From IMG/VR virus record IMGVR_UViG_2671180609_000016, positions 1-4,794 of that record: a stretch of 4,794 nt of DNA; one strand, written 5' to 3'. Position numbers and translations under genes: made by a program. The notes beneath the pieces were generated by a model that made no database searches, had not been told where the DNA came from, and worked only from the letters and a program-made list of their open reading frames with translations. Numbering within the stretch: position 1 is the stretch's first letter; every line of letters begins with the position of its first letter. Shown piece after piece: positions 1-4,794 of this stretch. This DNA is from a virus. Taxonomy: Duplodnaviria > Heunggongvirae > Uroviricota > Caudoviricetes.

Positions 1-2640
1 GTCCTTCTGCACGCGCTGTATCTGCTGAATGGTGGCGCTCTGGTCTTCCAGCGTTTTACTGACCGTCTGTGTGATTTCATTGCGGGTTTCTGTGATGGTG
101 GTCTGCATTTCCGCCATCTCGTCCTTCAGCTGACTGTTGTCAATCTCTGCCCACAGCGCCTCTGCCAGATGCGTTTTTCCTATCTTTTCCCGGAAAAGTT
201 CCAGATAGCCCGCAGCATCATTGCTCGCCCGTCCACTGGCTTCCACAAACGCAGATTTACCCACCAGGTTGACGCTGCGCACATAAAACCAGAAATCCTT
301 TCCGGGCTTAATGTGCGGACCGGAGACACTCCACTGACTGCCGGTCCCCAGATAACGGGCAGAGGTTTCCACCTGTGCGGCGTCTGCAATTTTTGCCTCC
401 GAAAACCAGAACTCAAACTGCACCGTCGGGTCATAAATGGTCAGTTTCGGGACTGCCGTTATCTGAAAATACCCCGGCGTCAGTTCAACACCGGCAGGCG
501 CTGCCGGTGCGTTAATCCGGAACGTGGTGGTGGCGGGTTCGCCCTGCTGGCCATAGCTGTTAATCGCCCTGACCGTCAGGGTGTATTCCCCGAGAGGCAG
601 GCCACTGAAACGGTGCTCCGTATCGGCAGTGATGGCGGTGGTCACCAGACGGCTGTCTTCTCCGCTTCCGCTGGTCAGGCGCAGACTGAAGCGCACACCC
701 TTCACCACCCGCGGCGTGTCCCATTTCGCCTGTGCCAGATACTGACCGTCAGCCGCGCTCACCTCCACTGTCAGGTGCTGCACTGCCGGTGGAATAACGC
801 TGTTCAGGGTGCCTGACTGCGGCTCAAAGCTGGCCCCGTTATCCACGATGGCTTCTTTTTCCGGTACGTGCTGCACCGCCGTGATGGCAAAGGTGCCGTC
901 CGTGTTTTCCCGGACGGAGACACAGCGGAACAGGCGACGACGCAGTGACGGCAGGGAGAGTCCCCATACACCGTATGTCTCCACGCCATCAGGCAGGGTG
1001 CTGACCTGTATCCGGTCCGGCGCGGGGTGTGCAGTGATGGCCACGCTCACCGGCTTACCGCTGCCGTTAATCAGGTTCACCGTGGCGGCACCGGTCTCCG
1101 GCAGGGTCACCTCACGGTCCAGTGTCAGGGTGCGGCTGGCGGCATCGATGGACAGGATACGTCCGCCGGTCATGGTCCCGGCATAGTCGTTATCACAGAT
1201 TTCAATAATGTCACCGGGTGTGTGACGCAGCCCCTGTGACCCGAGCGTGAAATCCACCGTCTGCGTTTCCAGCAGTCCGGTCTTTATCACCCACAGCCCG
1301 GCACGGTGGGCCTGACCGCGACTGGTGCAGCCGAACGCATCCATCTTCAGCAGGTTGCGTCCGTAGCGCAGTATGGCTTCCGGGTCTTCCACCAGTTCCG
1401 TGGAGGTCTGCCAGCCGTTCTGCGGGTCGGTGTAATTCACCTCCACCGCCGTGTGGCGGTCCTTCAGGGCGCTGAAGCTGTAGCGAAACCCCACGCCGTT
1501 ATCATCCACCACCACATCACTGCTGGTGTACGGCCACACCACATCTGACGGACGGTCCTGCACAAACGTCAGCGTCTGCCCGTTCCATACCGGCATACAG
1601 CGCATCGCCGAGCAGAAATCACTGAGAACGTCCCACGCCTTACGCTGTTGTGACAGGTACGCATTGAAAGTCATCCGCGGCTCTGTGCCCCCGAAACCAT
1701 CCGGGACCGTCTGGTCGCAGTACTGCGCAATGGCATACAGCGCCCACTTGTCCACATCCGCCGCCCCCAGGCGTTTTCCCATGCCGTAGCGCGGGTGAGT
1801 CAGCATGTCCCACAGGCACCAGGCCGGGTTGTTGCTGTATGCCGGTTTCAGGCTGCCGTCCCAGATACCACTGTACGTGCGTTTTTCCGGGTCATAGTTT
1901 GACGGTACCTGGATGATGCGACCGCGGATATGGTAGTTCACCGTCATCTGCTGACCGCCAAACTGCTCCGCATCCACCTGCAGCCCCACAATCGCCGTGT
2001 TCGGGTAGCACTGTTTCACATCGATGATTTCGGTGTATGACGACCAGAGCGTCTTATTCTGCAGCTGGTCCGTGGTGCTGTCCGCCGTCTCCCTGACCAT
2101 CCGGATGTTAAAGGGGCGGGGAGGCAGATTATCCAGAATCACCGACGCCAGAAACTGCGAGGTGGTCTTGCCGTTAATGGTGACATCCTTTTCCGTCATC
2201 CATTTACCACCACGCTCAAGCTGAATCAGCAGGCGGACAGACGTCGGGTTACGGTCACCCTTTGAGGTGGTCTCCACCAGTGACTGCACCCCGAAGGTGA
2301 CCCGCAGGCGGTCAATGTTCGCGGACGTAATGGTGCGCGTCACCGGCTTTGCCTTCGTCACTTCCACGCCCAGTCCGGTTTCAGCTCCGGAGGACTCAAA
2401 GCCTTCAGGTGGTGTCTGCTCCTGCTCCCCGGCGCGCCAGACCGCTGTCACACCATGTATCACAGGATTACCGTCCGTGTCCGTCAGCGGGGTTTTGTTC
2501 ACCAGGATACTCTGCAGCCCCTTCACCGGACCTTCAATCGGCCCTTCACCAATCGCATCAATCACGCTCATCATCTGCGTGGACTTAAGATTGTCCTTTG
2601 CCTCAACCGGCGTGTGCGCCCTGCCGCCACCTTTGCCCAT
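1..2640 (-). CDS. J: Host specificity protein J (central tail fibre / tail tip protein), N-terminal 880 codons; the 3' end runs off the window at position 1
   Basis: ATG at 2640..2638 on the minus strand. Hand translation of 2401..2640 gives [80 protein letters not shown], closely matching the lambda gpJ N-terminus as I recall it. I also hand-translated 2161..2400 and 1..540 in the same frame with no stop (e.g. [50 protein letters not shown]). The track lists no stop-terminated minus-strand ORF in this frame, consistent with one open frame reaching the window edge. SD-like AAGGGTGAG sits 4-12 nt upstream of the ATG. Confidence 0.95.
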
Positions 2641-2643
2641 TGT

Positions 2644-2652
2644 CTCACCCTT
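2644..2652 (-). promoter_or_regulatory. Ribosome-binding site for J (AAGGGTGAG, about 7 nt before the ATG)
   Basis: Minus-strand sequence reads aaagggtgagaca-ATG; purine-rich GGGTGA-type Shine-Dalgarno at appropriate spacing. Confidence 0.5.
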
Positions 2653-2671
2653 TACTGTGATAACTGTTACG

Positions 2672-2704
2672 CACAAAAACAACAGGCATCCCGGAGGATG
2701 CCTG
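2672..2704 (-). terminator. Intrinsic-terminator-like hairpin plus U-tract in the same orientation as the tail genes, ending about 30 nt upstream of the J start codon
   Basis: Minus-strand reading: CAGGCATCC-TCCG-GGATGCCTG (9-bp perfect stem, 4-nt loop; plus-strand 2683..2704) followed directly by TTGTTTTTGTG (plus-strand 2672..2682). Confidence 0.5.
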
Positions 2705-2838
2705 TATCATGACTGAATAAAAATTCTGAATATCTTCACATTTTCTGTACGCCCCCGTGGCAGATATCATTCCCGGGCGTTACAGTTTTTTCGGGCCAAT
2801 AAAAACAAAACTCCCTGTGGTTAATCTTCATTTTCTGT

Positions 2839-2876
2839 TCCCGCAGCCTTCGGTCACTGCGGGATTTTTTCGCTTT
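2839..2876 (+). terminator. Intrinsic-terminator-like hairpin plus T-tract in plus-strand orientation, abutting the stop codon of I
   Basis: Plus strand: tCCCGCAG-ccttcggtca-CTGCGGGa (8-bp stem 2839..2846 / 2857..2864, 10-nt loop) followed by TTTTTTcgcTTTT (2865..2877). On the minus strand the hairpin is followed by acagaaaatg, so it reads as unidirectional. Confidence 0.45.
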
Positions 2877-3556
2877 TATGCCTGCCGCCCGATAACCACC
2901 ACCTTCCCGTCACCGCCTTCATCACGGGTGCTGATGTCCTGGGAGATTCGCCGGGAGCCAACCAGCATTTCACCGTAAGGCACCGGCATCGGGTTCCCCT
3001 GGGCAATCATGTTATCCAGTGAGGAAAAATACGTGTTCTGTCTGCCGTTATCCGTTGCGCGGTAATCCGGTGTTTTTGCCTTCGGGGCAAGCATCTGAGC
3101 CACACCACCCAGTATCATGCTGGCCCCCAGTGAAAACAGCATCGTGGTGGCAGAAAAACCACCGGCTGCCAGGGCTGAACCCCATAACGCCATTGATGCC
3201 CCGGCAGTGAAGAACGACCCCACGATGGCCGCCGCCCCCAGCACAATCTGCAGTCCGCCCTTTCCGGCTCCGGCCAGTCGCGGCACAATATGGATGACCG
3301 CCCCCTCACCCAGAGGTTCGTGAAGACGGGCGTACACCGCCTCCGGTGCCGTGTCCTCACCGCGAATACGTATCTGGTACCAGCCTTCGTTCATCTGACG
3401 GCGGAATCCCGGCACCTGTAACGACAGCGCCCGGATGGCCTCCGCTGCCGTGTTCACATACAGGCTGAGGCGGCGGCCAAATCGTTGCAAATCCCCGTGA
3501 AGGCAGATGCGTGCCAGTGGCGGTGACGCCAGACAGAATGCGTTCGTCGTTGCCAT
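2876..3556 (-). CDS. I: Tail tip assembly protein I (226 aa): ubiquitin-like N-terminal domain ending in Gly-Gly, then a Gly/Ala-rich hydrophobic segment
   Basis: Track ORF 2876..3556 (-). N-terminus MATTNAFCLASPPLARICLHGDLQRFGRR matches lambda gpI (MAATHTLPLASPGMARICLYGDLQRFGRR as I recall it). Stop TAA at 2878..2876 verified by hand. Start ATG at 3556..3554; SD-like GGGAGAGG at 3575..3568. Confidence 0.93.
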   Translation of the reverse strand: MATTNAFCLASPPLARICLHGDLQRFGRRLSLYVNTAAEAIRALSLQVPGFRRQMNEGWYQIRIRGEDTAPEAVYARLHEPLGEGAVIHIVPRLAGAGKGGLQIVLGAAAIVGSFFTAGASMALWGSALAAGGFSATTMLFSLGASMILGGVAQMLAPKAKTPDYRATDNGRQNTYFSSLDNMIAQGNPMPVPYGEMLVGSRRISQDISTRDEGGDGKVVVIGRQA

Positions 3557-4197
3557 TTTTCGGAATACCTCTCCCGTTTACTCAGTTGTTCAGGCAGATG
3601 GTGAAGCAGTTCACCGTTGCCGCAGTATATGGCGGCATGATTGGCCACCGATGCGCCAAAGCAGCACAGCAGGATATCGCCAGGCTGTGCGGAAGGCAGG
3701 GAAATCCTGTAAAAACCAGTCGCCTCCATATTGTCCAGGTACAGGTTCTGACCATTGCGCCACCAGTCATCCTCACGCTCAAAATCCGGCATATCAGTCC
3801 CCGCCAGATGGTATGCATCCCGGAACAGCGTGTAACAGTCCGTCACCCCGTGTTCAAAGCGCCGTCCGGTCAGGTGCGGAACGCAGCGGAATTTGTGAAT
3901 GTCACCCTGGCTGACCAGCCACCAGGGCAGTGCGCTTTTTATCTGCAGCCGCCGGTCAGCCTCGCTCAGCCAGGGCAGACCACCGGGATGACTGTGAACC
4001 AGCGCCACAATCTCCCCCGACATCTCTGCCCGCAGCCAGTCTTCCGGTGCGATACGAAAATACGCCTCCGGCTCTGCGGAAATATTCACACACGGCAGAT
4101 ACCGCTCCCCCTCCGGCGTGCTTATCACGAAGCCGCACGACTCCGCAGGCGCACACCGCCGGGCATGCGCCAGAATCGCTGATTCAGTCTGTGTCAT
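3454..4197 (-). CDS. K: Tail tip assembly protein K (247 aa): N-terminal MPN/JAMM (JAB) metallopeptidase-like domain plus C-terminal NlpC/P60 cysteine-peptidase-like domain
   Basis: Track ORF 3454..4458 (-) in the same frame. I place the start at ATG 4197..4195 (MTQTESAILAHARRCAPAESCGFV...), because the 87 codons upstream are Arg-rich, overlap L in another frame and do not resemble K. JAMM-type motif H-S-H-x7-S-x2-D (HSHPGGLPWLSEAD; His codon verified at 3996..3994). NlpC/P60-type catalytic Cys in GVTDCYTLF (codon 3837..3835) with downstream NHAAIY / LLHH histidines. Stop TGA at 3456..3454 verified. Confidence 0.9.
   Translation of the reverse strand: MTQTESAILAHARRCAPAESCGFVISTPEGERYLPCVNISAEPEAYFRIAPEDWLRAEMSGEIVALVHSHPGGLPWLSEADRRLQIKSALPWWLVSQGDIHKFRCVPHLTGRRFEHGVTDCYTLFRDAYHLAGTDMPDFEREDDWWRNGQNLYLDNMEATGFYRISLPSAQPGDILLCCFGASVANHAAIYCGNGELLHHLPEQLSKRERYSEKWQRRTHSVWRHRHWHASAFTGICNDLAAASACM
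3568..3575 (-). promoter_or_regulatory. Ribosome-binding site for I, embedded in the 3' end of K
   Basis: GGGAGAGG about 11 nt upstream of the I ATG; this stretch also encodes ...KRERYSEKW... of K. Confidence 0.4.
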
Positions 4198-4207
4198 AAA
4201 CCGGGAT

Positions 4208-4794
4208 TTACTGCGAAAGTTTATTGATGGAAAGGAAACCGCCAAAATTAGCCACCATGCCGCGCATCTCACACCCGCGCATGCACTTGCTGCATCTGTC
4301 CTTACGGATATCCGTGGTGGGGTTGTCGAACTCATCCGCCACCGCAGGACCGTTATACCCGCATTCATCTCCCCGGTAATCCCACATACAGGTGTTCGCC
4401 AGCATGATGCGACCAGGAAACAGCGCCCCGTCCGTCTCCGTCGGTGTTGCCAGCACAAACGAGGCCGTCATGGCCGTCAGCTCTGACATCTGCTCCACCA
4501 CCCACCGGTCAGTCAGCTCCTGCTCCGGGTCGGCCTCCGGATTGCCTGCCACAAAGTTCACCGCATCCAGAAAACGCGCATACACCCGGCGGCGGACCAC
4601 CGTGGCACCCACCAGGCTCTGCAAATCCTCCGCCATCCCGGTGACAAGACCGAACAGATTGGACACCGTCAGCGACGGGCGGGCACTGCTGCCCTTTCCG
4701 TTCATCTCAAAGCCGCTGCCCTCAATCGGGTACGCCTGATATTCACGCCCCTGCCAGGTCACCGGCACCCCTTTTTCATTCAGCTCATTGCAGA
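4208..4794 (-). CDS. L: Tail tip protein L, C-terminal about 195 codons; the 5' end runs off the window at 4794
   Basis: Track ORF 4208..4768 (-); its 'start' is an internal GTG (Val in ...CNELNEKGVPVTWQGREY...) and the frame stays open to the window edge. Matches lambda gpL (...FFCNEQNEKGEPVTWQGRQYQPYPIQGSGF... as I recall it). C-terminal Cys cluster C-x22-C-x2-C-x3-C. Stop TAA at 4210..4208 verified; K ATG follows 10 nt downstream on the minus strand. Confidence 0.93.
   Translation of the reverse strand, partial: CNELNEKGVPVTWQGREYQAYPIEGSGFEMNGKGSSARPSLTVSNLFGLVTGMAEDLQSLVGATVVRRRVYARFLDAVNFVAGNPEADPEQELTDRWVVEQMSELTAMTASFVLATPTETDGALFPGRIMLANTCMWDYRGDECGYNGPAVADEFDNPTTDIRKDRCSKCMRGCEMRGMVANFGGFLSINKLSQ

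What the first reader, a model, noticed from the sequence alone, without database searches (positions are those of the whole stretch)
3077..4197. K (JAMM plus NlpC/P60) next to I (ubiquitin-like domain ending in Gly-Gly): a ubiquitin-like processing pair in the tail tip
K carries the JAMM metal-binding signature (H-S-H-x7-S-x2-D) and an NlpC/P60-type Cys/His set. I has a short beta-grasp-like N-terminal domain ending in G-A-G-K-G-G (Gly-Gly codons at 3259..3254), followed at once by a long Gly/Ala-rich hydrophobic stretch (LQIVLGAAAIVGSFFTAGASMALWGSALAAGGF...). Comparative-genomics work has proposed that the lambda K/I pair is a ubiquitin-like module in which the JAB domain of K processes I at the diglycine. 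Those catalytic and cleavage motifs are intact here. To my knowledge the biochemical function remains poorly characterised.
Basis: partly seen in the sequence, partly recalled or inferred. Interest (0 to 1): 0.45.

Follow-up and report, generated by a model that had tools for sequence, protein, structure and literature searches.

The report
Lambda tail genes K and I
These are the ordinary lambda-type tail-tip genes K (a double peptidase) and I (a ubiquitin-like domain fused to the tail-tip plug); the idea that K clips the ubiquitin-like domain off I was published in 2006 and has since gained experimental support, so nothing new is here.

Summary
On the minus strand, K (4197..3454, 247 aa) has a Prok-JAB domain with an intact JAMM motif and an NlpC/P60 domain with an intact Cys/His set. 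I (3556..2876, 226 aa) has a MoaD/SAMP-type beta-grasp domain, then G-A-G-K-G-G, two hydrophobic helices and the C-terminal plug domain solved in lambda tails.

The window is a lambdoid (Stx-phage-like) L-K-I-J tail-tip segment, about 95% identical in DNA to known Stx-converting phages.

Later work backs it:
- Cryo-EM shows only the post-Ubl part of gpI in virions, and K is absent from them.
- The N-terminus of an F-pyocin I homologue is removed on maturation.
- A 2025 conference report states that gpK cleaves the Ubl from gpI.

One refinement concerns the cut site. Across about 90 diverse homologues the conserved Ubl end is P92-x3-G96-[A/S]97. This aligns with the terminal Gly-Gly of MoaD, SAMP1, CysO and ubiquitin. 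The scissile bond is therefore more likely after A97, but this is unproven.

Verdict: already known, low interest.

The parts
4208..4794 (-). 3' part of gene L (tail hub protein, lambda gpL homologue). It runs off the window end. Context only.
   Evidence: Pfam Phage_tail_L E 7.6e-85 and TIGR01600 E 2.3e-97. The frame is open from 4792.
3454..4197 (-). Gene K, 247 aa, full length: tail-tip assembly peptidase with JAB and NlpC/P60 domains.
   Evidence: phrog_30 E 4.7e-157. tblastn finds homologues in 1761 phage records.
3883..4191 (-). K residues 3-105: JAB/MPN+ metallopeptidase domain. E19 lies at 4141..4143. H68-x-H70-x7-S78-x2-D81 lies at 3955..3996.
   Evidence: PF14464 57.3 bits. E19, H68, S69, H70, S78 and D81 are invariant in a seven-phage panel. 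The panel profile hits solved JAMM proteins 2kcq (4e-12), 2kks and PfJAMM1 5lda.
3526..3867 (-). K residues 111-224: NlpC/P60 papain-like cysteine peptidase domain. C121 lies at 3835..3837, H187 at 3637..3639, H199 at 3601..3603.
   Evidence: PF00877 47.8 bits. D120, C121, H187, H199 and H200 are invariant in the panel. The profile hits 7cfl, Spr/MepS, LytE and CwlO.
3454..3556 (-). 103-nt overlap of the K 3' end with the I 5' end. I is in the -1 frame relative to K.
   Evidence: Lambda has the same 103-nt overlap. N15, phi80, phiE125, Shfl1 and SSU5 overlap by only 1-13 nt. No XXXYYYZ slippery site is present.
2876..3556 (-). Gene I, 226 aa: precursor of the tail-tip internal plug protein (lambda gpI homologue).
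   Evidence: phmmer to lambda gpI in 8iyk/8iyl/8k35/8xcg gives E 1e-94 over residues 1-224.
3266..3517 (-). I residues 14-97: MoaD/SAMP-type ubiquitin-like beta-grasp domain ending in P92-R-L-A-G96-A97. G96-A97 lies at 3266..3271.
   Evidence: PF06805 E 3.3e-15. AF2 pLDDT 88.2. Foldseek top hits are SAMP1, MoaD, CysO and Urm1. P92 is invariant and G96 is at least 90% conserved. hhalign places the C-terminal GG of MoaD, SAMP1, CysO and ubiquitin on G96-A97.
3254..3265 (-). I residues 98-101 (G-K-G-G): variable Gly/Lys/Ser linker.
   Evidence: G100 is conserved in only 40 of 90 representatives (with 17 gaps) and G101 in 80 of 90. AF2 pLDDT is below 50 for residues 98-101.
3092..3253 (-). I residues 102-155: two Gly/Ala-rich hydrophobic helices (H1 and H2 of lambda gpI), predicted to span a membrane.
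   Evidence: Hydropathy scan. G107, G144 and G151 are invariant or nearly so. Lambda H1/H2 sit in the tip lumen and are proposed to insert into the outer membrane (PMC11101478).
2876..3091 (-). I residues 156-226 plus the stop codon: plug and beta-augmentation domain that stays in the virion as a trimer inside the J/L cone.
   Evidence: Matches 9e7m gpI chains at E 8e-38. Lambda gpI residues 135-223 or 134-222 are modelled in virions.
1..2640 (-). 5' part of gene J (central tail fibre): 880 open codons running off the window start. Context only; J is the scaffold that I binds.
   Evidence: The start [20 protein letters not shown] resembles the start of lambda J as I recall it (own recollection).

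Best explanation
This is the K-I step of lambda-type tail-tip assembly.

I is made as a precursor with four parts: a MoaD/SAMP-like ubiquitin-like (Ubl) domain (about residues 14-97), a short flexible Gly-rich linker (98-101), two hydrophobic helices (102-155) and a C-terminal plug domain (156-226).

The precursor joins the J/L tip complex. There the zinc-dependent JAB domain of K (E19, H68, H70, S78, D81) cuts the linear peptide bond at the C-terminal end of the Ubl. The Ubl and K then leave. The helices-plus-plug fragment stays as a trimer in the tip lumen. It holds the C-terminus of the tape measure protein and seals the tube until receptor binding. Removing the Ubl acts as an assembly checkpoint that allows the next step.

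What is shown here: the domains, the intact catalytic residues, the beta-grasp fold, and homology to solved lambda gpI.

What comes from the literature: the Ubl is absent and K is absent from virions; the N-terminus is removed in an F-pyocin homologue; and gpK is reported to cleave gpI.

What I infer: the bond cut is most likely after A97, the position equivalent to the terminal Gly-Gly of MoaD, SAMP and ubiquitin, rather than after G101.

The role of the equally conserved NlpC/P60 domain is unknown. My guess is a second proteolytic or scaffolding role during assembly.
For: Domain and catalytic-residue evidence:
- Pfam hits are above the gathering scores for all three domains.
- JAMM and NlpC/P60 catalytic residues are invariant in lambda-type, N15, phi80, phiE125, T1-like Shfl1, SSU5 and pVa-2 K proteins.
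- The K panel profile matches solved JAMM proteins, including PfJAMM1 (5lda/5ld9); from my own recollection, PfJAMM1 is a SAMP-specific protease.
- The AF2 model of I 1-104 has pLDDT 88 with a disordered tail.
- Its best PDB matches are SAMP1, MoaD, CysO, Urm1 and ThiS.

Literature:
- The proposal itself, including the note that the JAB domain travels with the Ubl: PMC1779556.
- Lambda virions contain gpI but not gpK. Only residues 135-223 (PMC10721106), 134-222 (PMC12617516) or from 101 onward (PMC11101478) are modelled.
- Virion MS found one gpI peptide at 9.87% coverage. Only the C-terminal tryptic peptide V202-R223 gives that figure.
- For the F-pyocin homologue PA0640, N-terminal peptides are missing from mature particles but present in stalled tips. 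Deleting the K homologue PA0639 gives tip-less tubes.
- Conference report: gpK cleaves the Ubl of gpI, and only after gpI has joined the tip complex (PMC12908700).

Cut site:
- P92 is invariant. G96 is conserved in 87 of 90 and A/S97 in 80 of 90 representatives, against G100 in 40 of 90.
- hhalign, in both global and local mode, puts the terminal GG of MoaD, SAMP1, CysO and ubiquitin on G96-A97.
- G101 is reported as modelled in mature lambda gpI. That fits a cut upstream of it.
Against: - No cleavage experiment exists for this sequence. The direct lambda evidence is so far only a meeting summary, not a paper I could read.
- Missing cryo-EM density for residues 1-100 could also mean disorder. 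Ge and Wang treat it as an unresolved domain.
- PA0640 expressed alone in E. coli lost its N-terminus to unknown host proteases, so a host enzyme could contribute.
- My cut-site inference rests on alignment of a short low-complexity tail.
- P1 = Ala is unusual for JAMM enzymes.
- I could not model the K-I complex. The single-sequence AF2 run of K+I gave pLDDT 38.8, and the tool returns no coordinates.
Confidence: 0.8

Rival explanations
1. The Ubl domain is not removed. It stays attached as a flexible N-terminal domain of I inside or beneath the tip and is simply invisible to cryo-EM. K's peptidase domains act on something else.
For: [quoted passage not shown] Missing density alone does not prove cleavage.
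Against: - Virion MS coverage fits only the C-terminal peptide.
- F-pyocin MS shows N-terminal peptides in stalled tips but not in mature particles.
- The conference report describes cleavage by gpK.
- Three 10-kDa domains would have to fit in a lumen already filled by gpH and gpI.
Confidence: 0.05
2. The Ubl is removed, but by host or other proteases acting on an exposed linker. K is needed only as a chaperone or scaffold.
For: Recombinant PA0640 alone loses its N-terminal region in E. coli through 'unknown host proteases'.
Against: - All five JAMM catalytic residues are invariant across very divergent K proteins (29-43% identity). That argues for selection on catalysis.
- The JAB domain co-travels with the Ubl in gene neighbourhoods.
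- The conference report attributes the cleavage to gpK.
Confidence: 0.06
3. K's JAB domain is mainly an anti-defence deubiquitinase. It strips bacterial Ubls (Bil-type systems) from the central fibre J, rather than processing I.
For: Hor et al. speculate exactly this for DUB domains in siphophage tail assembly proteins (bioRxiv 10.1101/2023.09.04.556158).
Against: - K is essential for tail assembly in hosts without Bil systems (lambda). The F-pyocin K homologue is likewise required.
- K is always adjacent to a cis Ubl substrate.
- K has no PADLOC match.
- This role could be secondary and is not mutually exclusive with I processing.
Confidence: 0.05
4. K is a tail-associated cell-wall hydrolase. 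Its NlpC/P60 domain digests peptidoglycan during DNA entry, and the JAB/Ubl resemblance is incidental.
For: The closest solved relatives of the C-terminal domain are peptidoglycan endopeptidases: Spr/MepS, LytE, CwlO and RipA-like proteins. NCBI annotates lambda K as 'C40 family peptidase'.
Against: - gpK is not detected in virions by MS or cryo-EM, nor in F-pyocin particles.
- Lambda virions are reported to carry no peptidoglycan hydrolase.
Confidence: 0.04

Closest known systems
Bacteriophage lambda gpK / gpI (TAPK / TAPI of Iyer, Burroughs and Aravind 2006)
   Same: - Same gene order L-K-I-J and the same 103-nt K/I overlap.
- I matches lambda gpI at E 1e-94 over residues 1-224.
- K is about 85% identical to the K of lambda-like phages such as HK630.
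- Same domains and motifs.
   Different: - Sequence-level variation only, for example AGAGKGG here against AGAKSGG in lambda.
- I codon 14 is Leu (CTG) here, where lambda has Met.
- The I-J spacer is 235 nt here against 60 nt in lambda.
- K here is an uninterrupted 247-codon ORF. In the lambda reference the first 46 codons are in another frame and K is annotated as 199 aa.
Archaeal JAMM1 / SAMP and bacterial Mec+/CysO, QbsD/QbsE (a JAMM peptidase acting at the C-terminus of a MoaD-like Ubl)
   Same: - The K JAB profile matches PfJAMM1 (5lda/5ld9).
- The I Ubl model matches SAMP1, MoaD and CysO best.
- In each case a JAMM enzyme cuts right after the Ubl tail.
   Different: - The window holds no E1-like or sulfur-transfer gene, only L, K, I and J.
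- The Ubl is a cis leader on a structural protein and is discarded, not conjugated.
- The equivalent of the terminal Gly-Gly is Gly-Ala/Ser.
F-type pyocin PA0639 / PA0640 (PyoF8 / PyoF9, 'THIP')
   Same: - Homologous K-like assembly factor that is absent from particles.
- I-like plug protein of which only the C-terminal part (127/128-200) is seen.
- The N-terminus is removed on maturation.
   Different: This is a tailocin, not a phage. The protease responsible was not identified in that study.
Phage T5 pb3 plug domain
   Same: A trimeric plug closes the tip lumen at the same place as the gpI C-terminal domain.
   Different: In T5 the plug is an insertion in the hub protein. It has no Ubl leader and no K-like peptidase.

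Membership tests
JAB/MPN+ (JAMM) metallopeptidases, Pfam Prok-JAB PF14464 | Profile match above the curated cut-off | tested here: met
   57.3 bits against a cut-off of 25, E 1.8e-15, K residues 3-105 covering profile positions 3-113 of 114. The panel profile hits solved JAMM proteins 2kcq at 4e-12 and 5lda at 5e-6.
JAB/MPN+ (JAMM) metallopeptidases, Pfam Prok-JAB PF14464 | Catalytic motif E...H-x-H-x7-S-x2-D complete | tested here: met
   E19, H68, H70, S78 and D81 are present and invariant in the seven-phage panel.
JAB/MPN+ (JAMM) metallopeptidases, Pfam Prok-JAB PF14464 | Zinc-dependent peptidase or isopeptidase activity | not testable with these tools
   Only reported at second hand for lambda gpK (PMC12908700).
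NlpC/P60 (C40) papain-like peptidases, PF00877 | Profile match above the curated cut-off | tested here: met
   47.8 bits against a cut-off of 23, E 1.5e-12, K residues 111-224 covering profile positions 1-105 of 105. PDB relatives are 7cfl, Spr/MepS and LytE.
NlpC/P60 (C40) papain-like peptidases, PF00877 | Catalytic Cys, His and a third polar residue | tested here: met
   C121 (D-C-Y), H187 (N-H-A) and H199/H200 are invariant in the panel.
NlpC/P60 (C40) papain-like peptidases, PF00877 | Known substrate (peptidoglycan stem peptide or a protein) | not testable with these tools
   The substrate of K's C40 domain is unknown. K is absent from virions.
Lambda tail assembly protein I (TAPI), PF06805 plus the gpI C-terminal plug | Profile match, and full-length homology to solved lambda gpI | tested here: met
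   PF06805 56.7 bits against a cut-off of 23.8. 8iyk_I at E 1e-94 over residues 1-224. 3276 family members among the 50%-identity cluster representatives.
Lambda tail assembly protein I (TAPI), PF06805 plus the gpI C-terminal plug | Gene context: between a K-type peptidase gene and the central fibre gene J, downstream of L | tested here: met
   L 4794..4208, K 4197..3454, I 3556..2876, J from 2640. N15, phi80, phiE125, Shfl1 and SSU5 have the same order.
Ubiquitin-like beta-grasp proteins of the ThiS/MoaD/SAMP/Urm1 type | Beta-grasp fold | tested here: met
   AF2 with an 82-sequence MSA gives pLDDT 88.2. All eight Foldseek PDB hits at E <= 1e-3 are SAMP1, MoaD (molybdopterin synthase small subunit) or CysO (probability 1.0, TM-score normalised to target 0.67-0.76). 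Urm1, ThiS and ubiquitin follow at weaker E-values.
Ubiquitin-like beta-grasp proteins of the ThiS/MoaD/SAMP/Urm1 type | Gly-Gly at the C-terminal end of the fold | tested here: inconclusive
   The position equivalent to the terminal GG is G96-A97. G96 is conserved in 97% of representatives; position 97 is A in 78%, S in 11% and G in 4%. A true GG lies four residues further on but is poorly conserved.
Ubiquitin-like beta-grasp proteins of the ThiS/MoaD/SAMP/Urm1 type | Partner E1-like adenylating enzyme (conjugation or sulfur transfer) | tested here: not met
   The window holds no such gene; its genes are L, K, I and J only. So this is a Ubl fold used as a cleavable leader, not a conjugation or sulfur-carrier system. 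The rest of the genome was not examined.

The most novel reading that the evidence does not exclude
Two readings remain open.

(a) The JAB domain of K cuts after the family-invariant Gly-Ala/Ser (G96-A97) rather than after a Gly-Gly. That would make K a JAMM enzyme with an Ala/Ser P1 preference acting on a linear fusion.

(b) The equally conserved but unexplained NlpC/P60 domain of K is a second assembly protease. It could, for example, be the long-sought enzyme that converts the tape measure protein gpH to gpH* in the Gly-rich region next to where gpI holds it.

Nothing here tests (b). It rests only on the invariant Cys/His set, on K's absence from virions, and on the statement that the gpH protease is unknown.
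Probability: 0.12. Interest if true: 0.55.

Novelty: already known. Interest (0 to 1): 0.15.

Why it matters
It matters little for discovery. This is a typical lambdoid prophage copy of a module described in 2006 and now being worked out experimentally in lambda and in F-pyocins.

It is useful as a clean, full-length example. K is intact here, whereas the lambda reference entry annotates a truncated 199-aa K.

The conservation analysis gives experimenters a concrete prediction: the scissile bond follows P-x3-G-[A/S], so the mature I protein should begin at G98 here and at K98 in lambda.

Tried and rejected
- **K+I complex model.** AF2 on a single-sequence K+I concatenation gave pLDDT 38.8 and was useless. 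The tool returns no coordinates, so complex modelling could not locate the scissile bond in any case.
- **Wider locus search.** The search for related loci with I alone returned only loci at least 96% identical. With the diverse alignment A1 it failed because no stretch was conserved enough. I used a hand-picked panel of named phages instead.
- **Programmed -1 frameshift making a K-I fusion.** I is in the -1 frame across the 103-nt overlap, and PHROG profiles 28576 and 35166 span both proteins. I rejected the idea for three reasons. There is no XXXYYYZ slippery site. Other phages overlap by only 1-13 nt. The database K-I and L-I fusions (P0002, P0007, P0088, P0092, P0103) are singletons with different junctions, so they are mutational or assembly artefacts.
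- **Short stand-alone Ubl proteins as a guide to the natural C-terminus.** The short representatives I inspected read as frameshifted, truncated or internally deleted copies rather than natural stand-alone Ubls.
- **Rfam on the whole window.** No hit.
- **PADLOC on K and I.** No hit.
- **Wang et al. Structure 2024.** The paper is not held, so I could not confirm the first modelled gpI residue.
- **Full paper behind the 2025 talk.** I found none.
Full report
**What is in the window**

All real genes lie on the minus strand:
- the 3' part of L (4794..4208);
- K (4197..3454, 247 aa);
- I (3556..2876, 226 aa);
- a 235-nt spacer;
- the first 880 codons of J (2640..1).

The DNA is about 95% identical over its whole length to Stx-converting lambdoid phages. 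An I protein 100% identical to this one occurs in IMG/VR prophage contigs. This is therefore a lambda-type tail-tip segment from an E. coli lambdoid prophage.

**Checking the observation**

- K carries H68-S-H70-x7-S78-x2-D81 at 3996..3955, plus the upstream catalytic Glu E19.
- K also carries C121, H187 and H199/H200.
- I carries G96-A-G-K-G100-G101, with the Gly-Gly codons at 3259..3254.

Pfam places K residues 3-105 in Prok-JAB (57.3 bits, cut-off 25). It places residues 111-224 in NLPC_P60 (47.8 bits, cut-off 23). I residues 15-97 fall in Lambda_tail_I (56.7 bits, cut-off 23.8). NCBIfam and PHROGs agree.

The stated interval ends inside I, which runs on to 2876. K and I overlap by 103 nt, exactly as in lambda.

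**Testing the fold claims**

I built an 82-sequence alignment from 50%-identity cluster representatives; the family has 3276 members. With it, AlphaFold2 models I residues 1-104 at pLDDT 88.2. Strands and helices at residues 14-92 are confident, and the tail beyond is disordered.

Foldseek against the PDB returns only ubiquitin-like beta-grasp proteins. The top hits are SAMP1, MoaD, CysO, Urm1 and ThiS, followed by ubiquitin itself. Against viral models it returns other tail assembly proteins, I-J fusions and viral ubiquitins.

For K, I aligned a panel of seven K proteins: this window's K plus phiE125, N15, phi80, T1-like Shfl1, SSU5 and Vibrio pVa-2, which are 29-43% identical to it. All JAMM residues and the NlpC/P60 Cys/His/His set are invariant across the panel. 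The annotated lambda K conserves every one of these that it retains; it lacks the first 48 residues, so E19 cannot be scored there.

The panel profile matches solved JAMM proteins: 2kcq, 2kks and PfJAMM1 5lda/5ld9. It also matches NlpC/P60 endopeptidases: 7cfl, Spr/MepS, LytE and CwlO. So both partners resemble a JAMM-plus-MoaD-like-Ubl pair.

**What is already known**

They identified the Ubl in 'TAPI' and the JAB plus NlpC/P60 domains in 'TAPK'. They predicted that the JAB domain releases the Ubl at its C-terminal glycine.

Later work fills in the rest.
- Lambda virions contain gpI but not gpK (MS and cryo-EM; PMC10721106; PMC12617516).
- Only the post-Ubl part of gpI is modelled: residues 135-223, 134-222, or 'from position 101 onward'.
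- That fragment forms a trimeric plug in the tip lumen, holds the tape measure C-terminus, and has two hydrophobic helices proposed to enter the outer membrane.
- The virion MS table lists one gpI peptide at 9.87% coverage. Among the fully tryptic peptides of lambda gpI, only the C-terminal V202-R223 gives that figure. This link is my inference.
- In an F-type pyocin, N-terminal peptides of the I homologue PA0640 are absent from mature particles but present in stalled tips. Deleting the K homologue PA0639 gives tip-less tubes (bioRxiv 10.64898/2026.02.24.707460).
- A report of an October 2025 talk by A. [quoted passage not shown]

I found no full paper on this last point.

**Mechanism**

The best-supported account is as follows. 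The I precursor docks on J/L. The K JAB domain then removes the Ubl leader. K and the Ubl leave, and the helices-plus-plug fragment remains. Cleavage acts as an assembly checkpoint.

The domains, catalytic residues and fold are shown here. The cleavage and its timing come from the literature.

**A refinement on the cut site**

Over 90 diverse representatives the conservation is:

| Position | Conservation |
|---|---|
| P92 | 88 of 90 in the 90-representative count (invariant in alignment A1) |
| G96 | 87 of 90 |
| 97 | A or S in 80 of 90 |
| 98-100 | variable and often gapped (G100 in 40 of 90) |
| G101 | 80 of 90 |

G101 begins the conserved G-h-x-Q-h-h-x-G helix motif.

Profile alignment of the I N-domain against MoaD, SAMP1, CysO and ubiquitin puts their terminal Gly-Gly on G96-A97. 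This held in both global and local mode.

G101 is reported as modelled in mature lambda gpI. That fits a cut upstream of it. I therefore predict cleavage after A97 with roughly 55-60% confidence. The alternative, after G101, cannot be excluded.

**Rivals**

- The Ubl is retained but disordered.
- Host proteases do the cutting.
- K is an anti-Bil deubiquitinase (speculated in bioRxiv 10.1101/2023.09.04.556158).
- K is a virion muralytic enzyme.

Each is weakened by K's absence from particles, by the invariant JAMM site, by the constant K-I adjacency, and by the published MS data. None is formally excluded for this particular sequence. The function of the conserved NlpC/P60 domain remains unexplained.

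**Verdict**

However, the module is already known and is identical in kind to lambda K/I. Interest is low. The only additions are the cut-site prediction and a few annotation notes.

Noticed in passing
window 2641..2875 (minus strand), between the I stop and the J start: The I-J spacer is 235 nt here against 60 nt in lambda. Right after the I stop it holds a CCCGCAG/CTGCGGG hairpin. It also holds a possible 31-codon ORF (ATG at 2831). At 2705..2682, about 40 nt before J, there is a strong terminator-like hairpin (10-bp stem plus a T-run). The spacer is conserved at 90% identity or more in about 120 Stx-phage records and is unannotated there. N15 has an annotated terminator at this position and phi80 has a moron (morF), so this looks like a moron or terminator insertion hot-spot.
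   Followed up: partly
L001 (lambda NC_001416) 1133..1280, i.e. record 14132..14279: In the lambda reference sequence the first 46 codons of K (MTQTES...GEPEA, including the JAMM Glu) are in a different frame from the annotated 199-aa K. The annotated K starts at an internal Met. Relative to this window there is a 1-nt difference near codon 46. So the reference annotation truncates the JAB domain, through either a sequencing error or a real lesion in that strain. In this window K is an uninterrupted 247-codon ORF.
   Followed up: partly
window 3454..3556: The 103-nt out-of-frame K/I overlap is peculiar to lambda-type phages. N15, phi80, phiE125, Shfl1 and SSU5 overlap by only 1-13 nt. It arises from a roughly 20-aa C-terminal extension of K and a 13-aa N-terminal extension of I. 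Most I homologues start at the position of residue 14, which is Met in lambda but Leu (CTG) here, so the ATG at 3556 must be used.
   Followed up: yes
proteins P0002, P0007, P0088, P0092, P0103; PHROGs 28576 and 35166: Databases hold singleton K-I, I-K and L-I 'fusion' proteins with differing junctions. Two PHROG profiles span both K and I. These look like frameshifted or deleted prophage copies rather than real fusions, and they could mislead automated annotation.
   Followed up: partly
PDB entries 9l9p_A and 25vf_9: Two further solved I homologues exist. One is a T1-like 199-aa chain nearly identical to Shfl1 I, and the other is a 200-aa 'putative phage tail assembly protein'.
   Followed up: no
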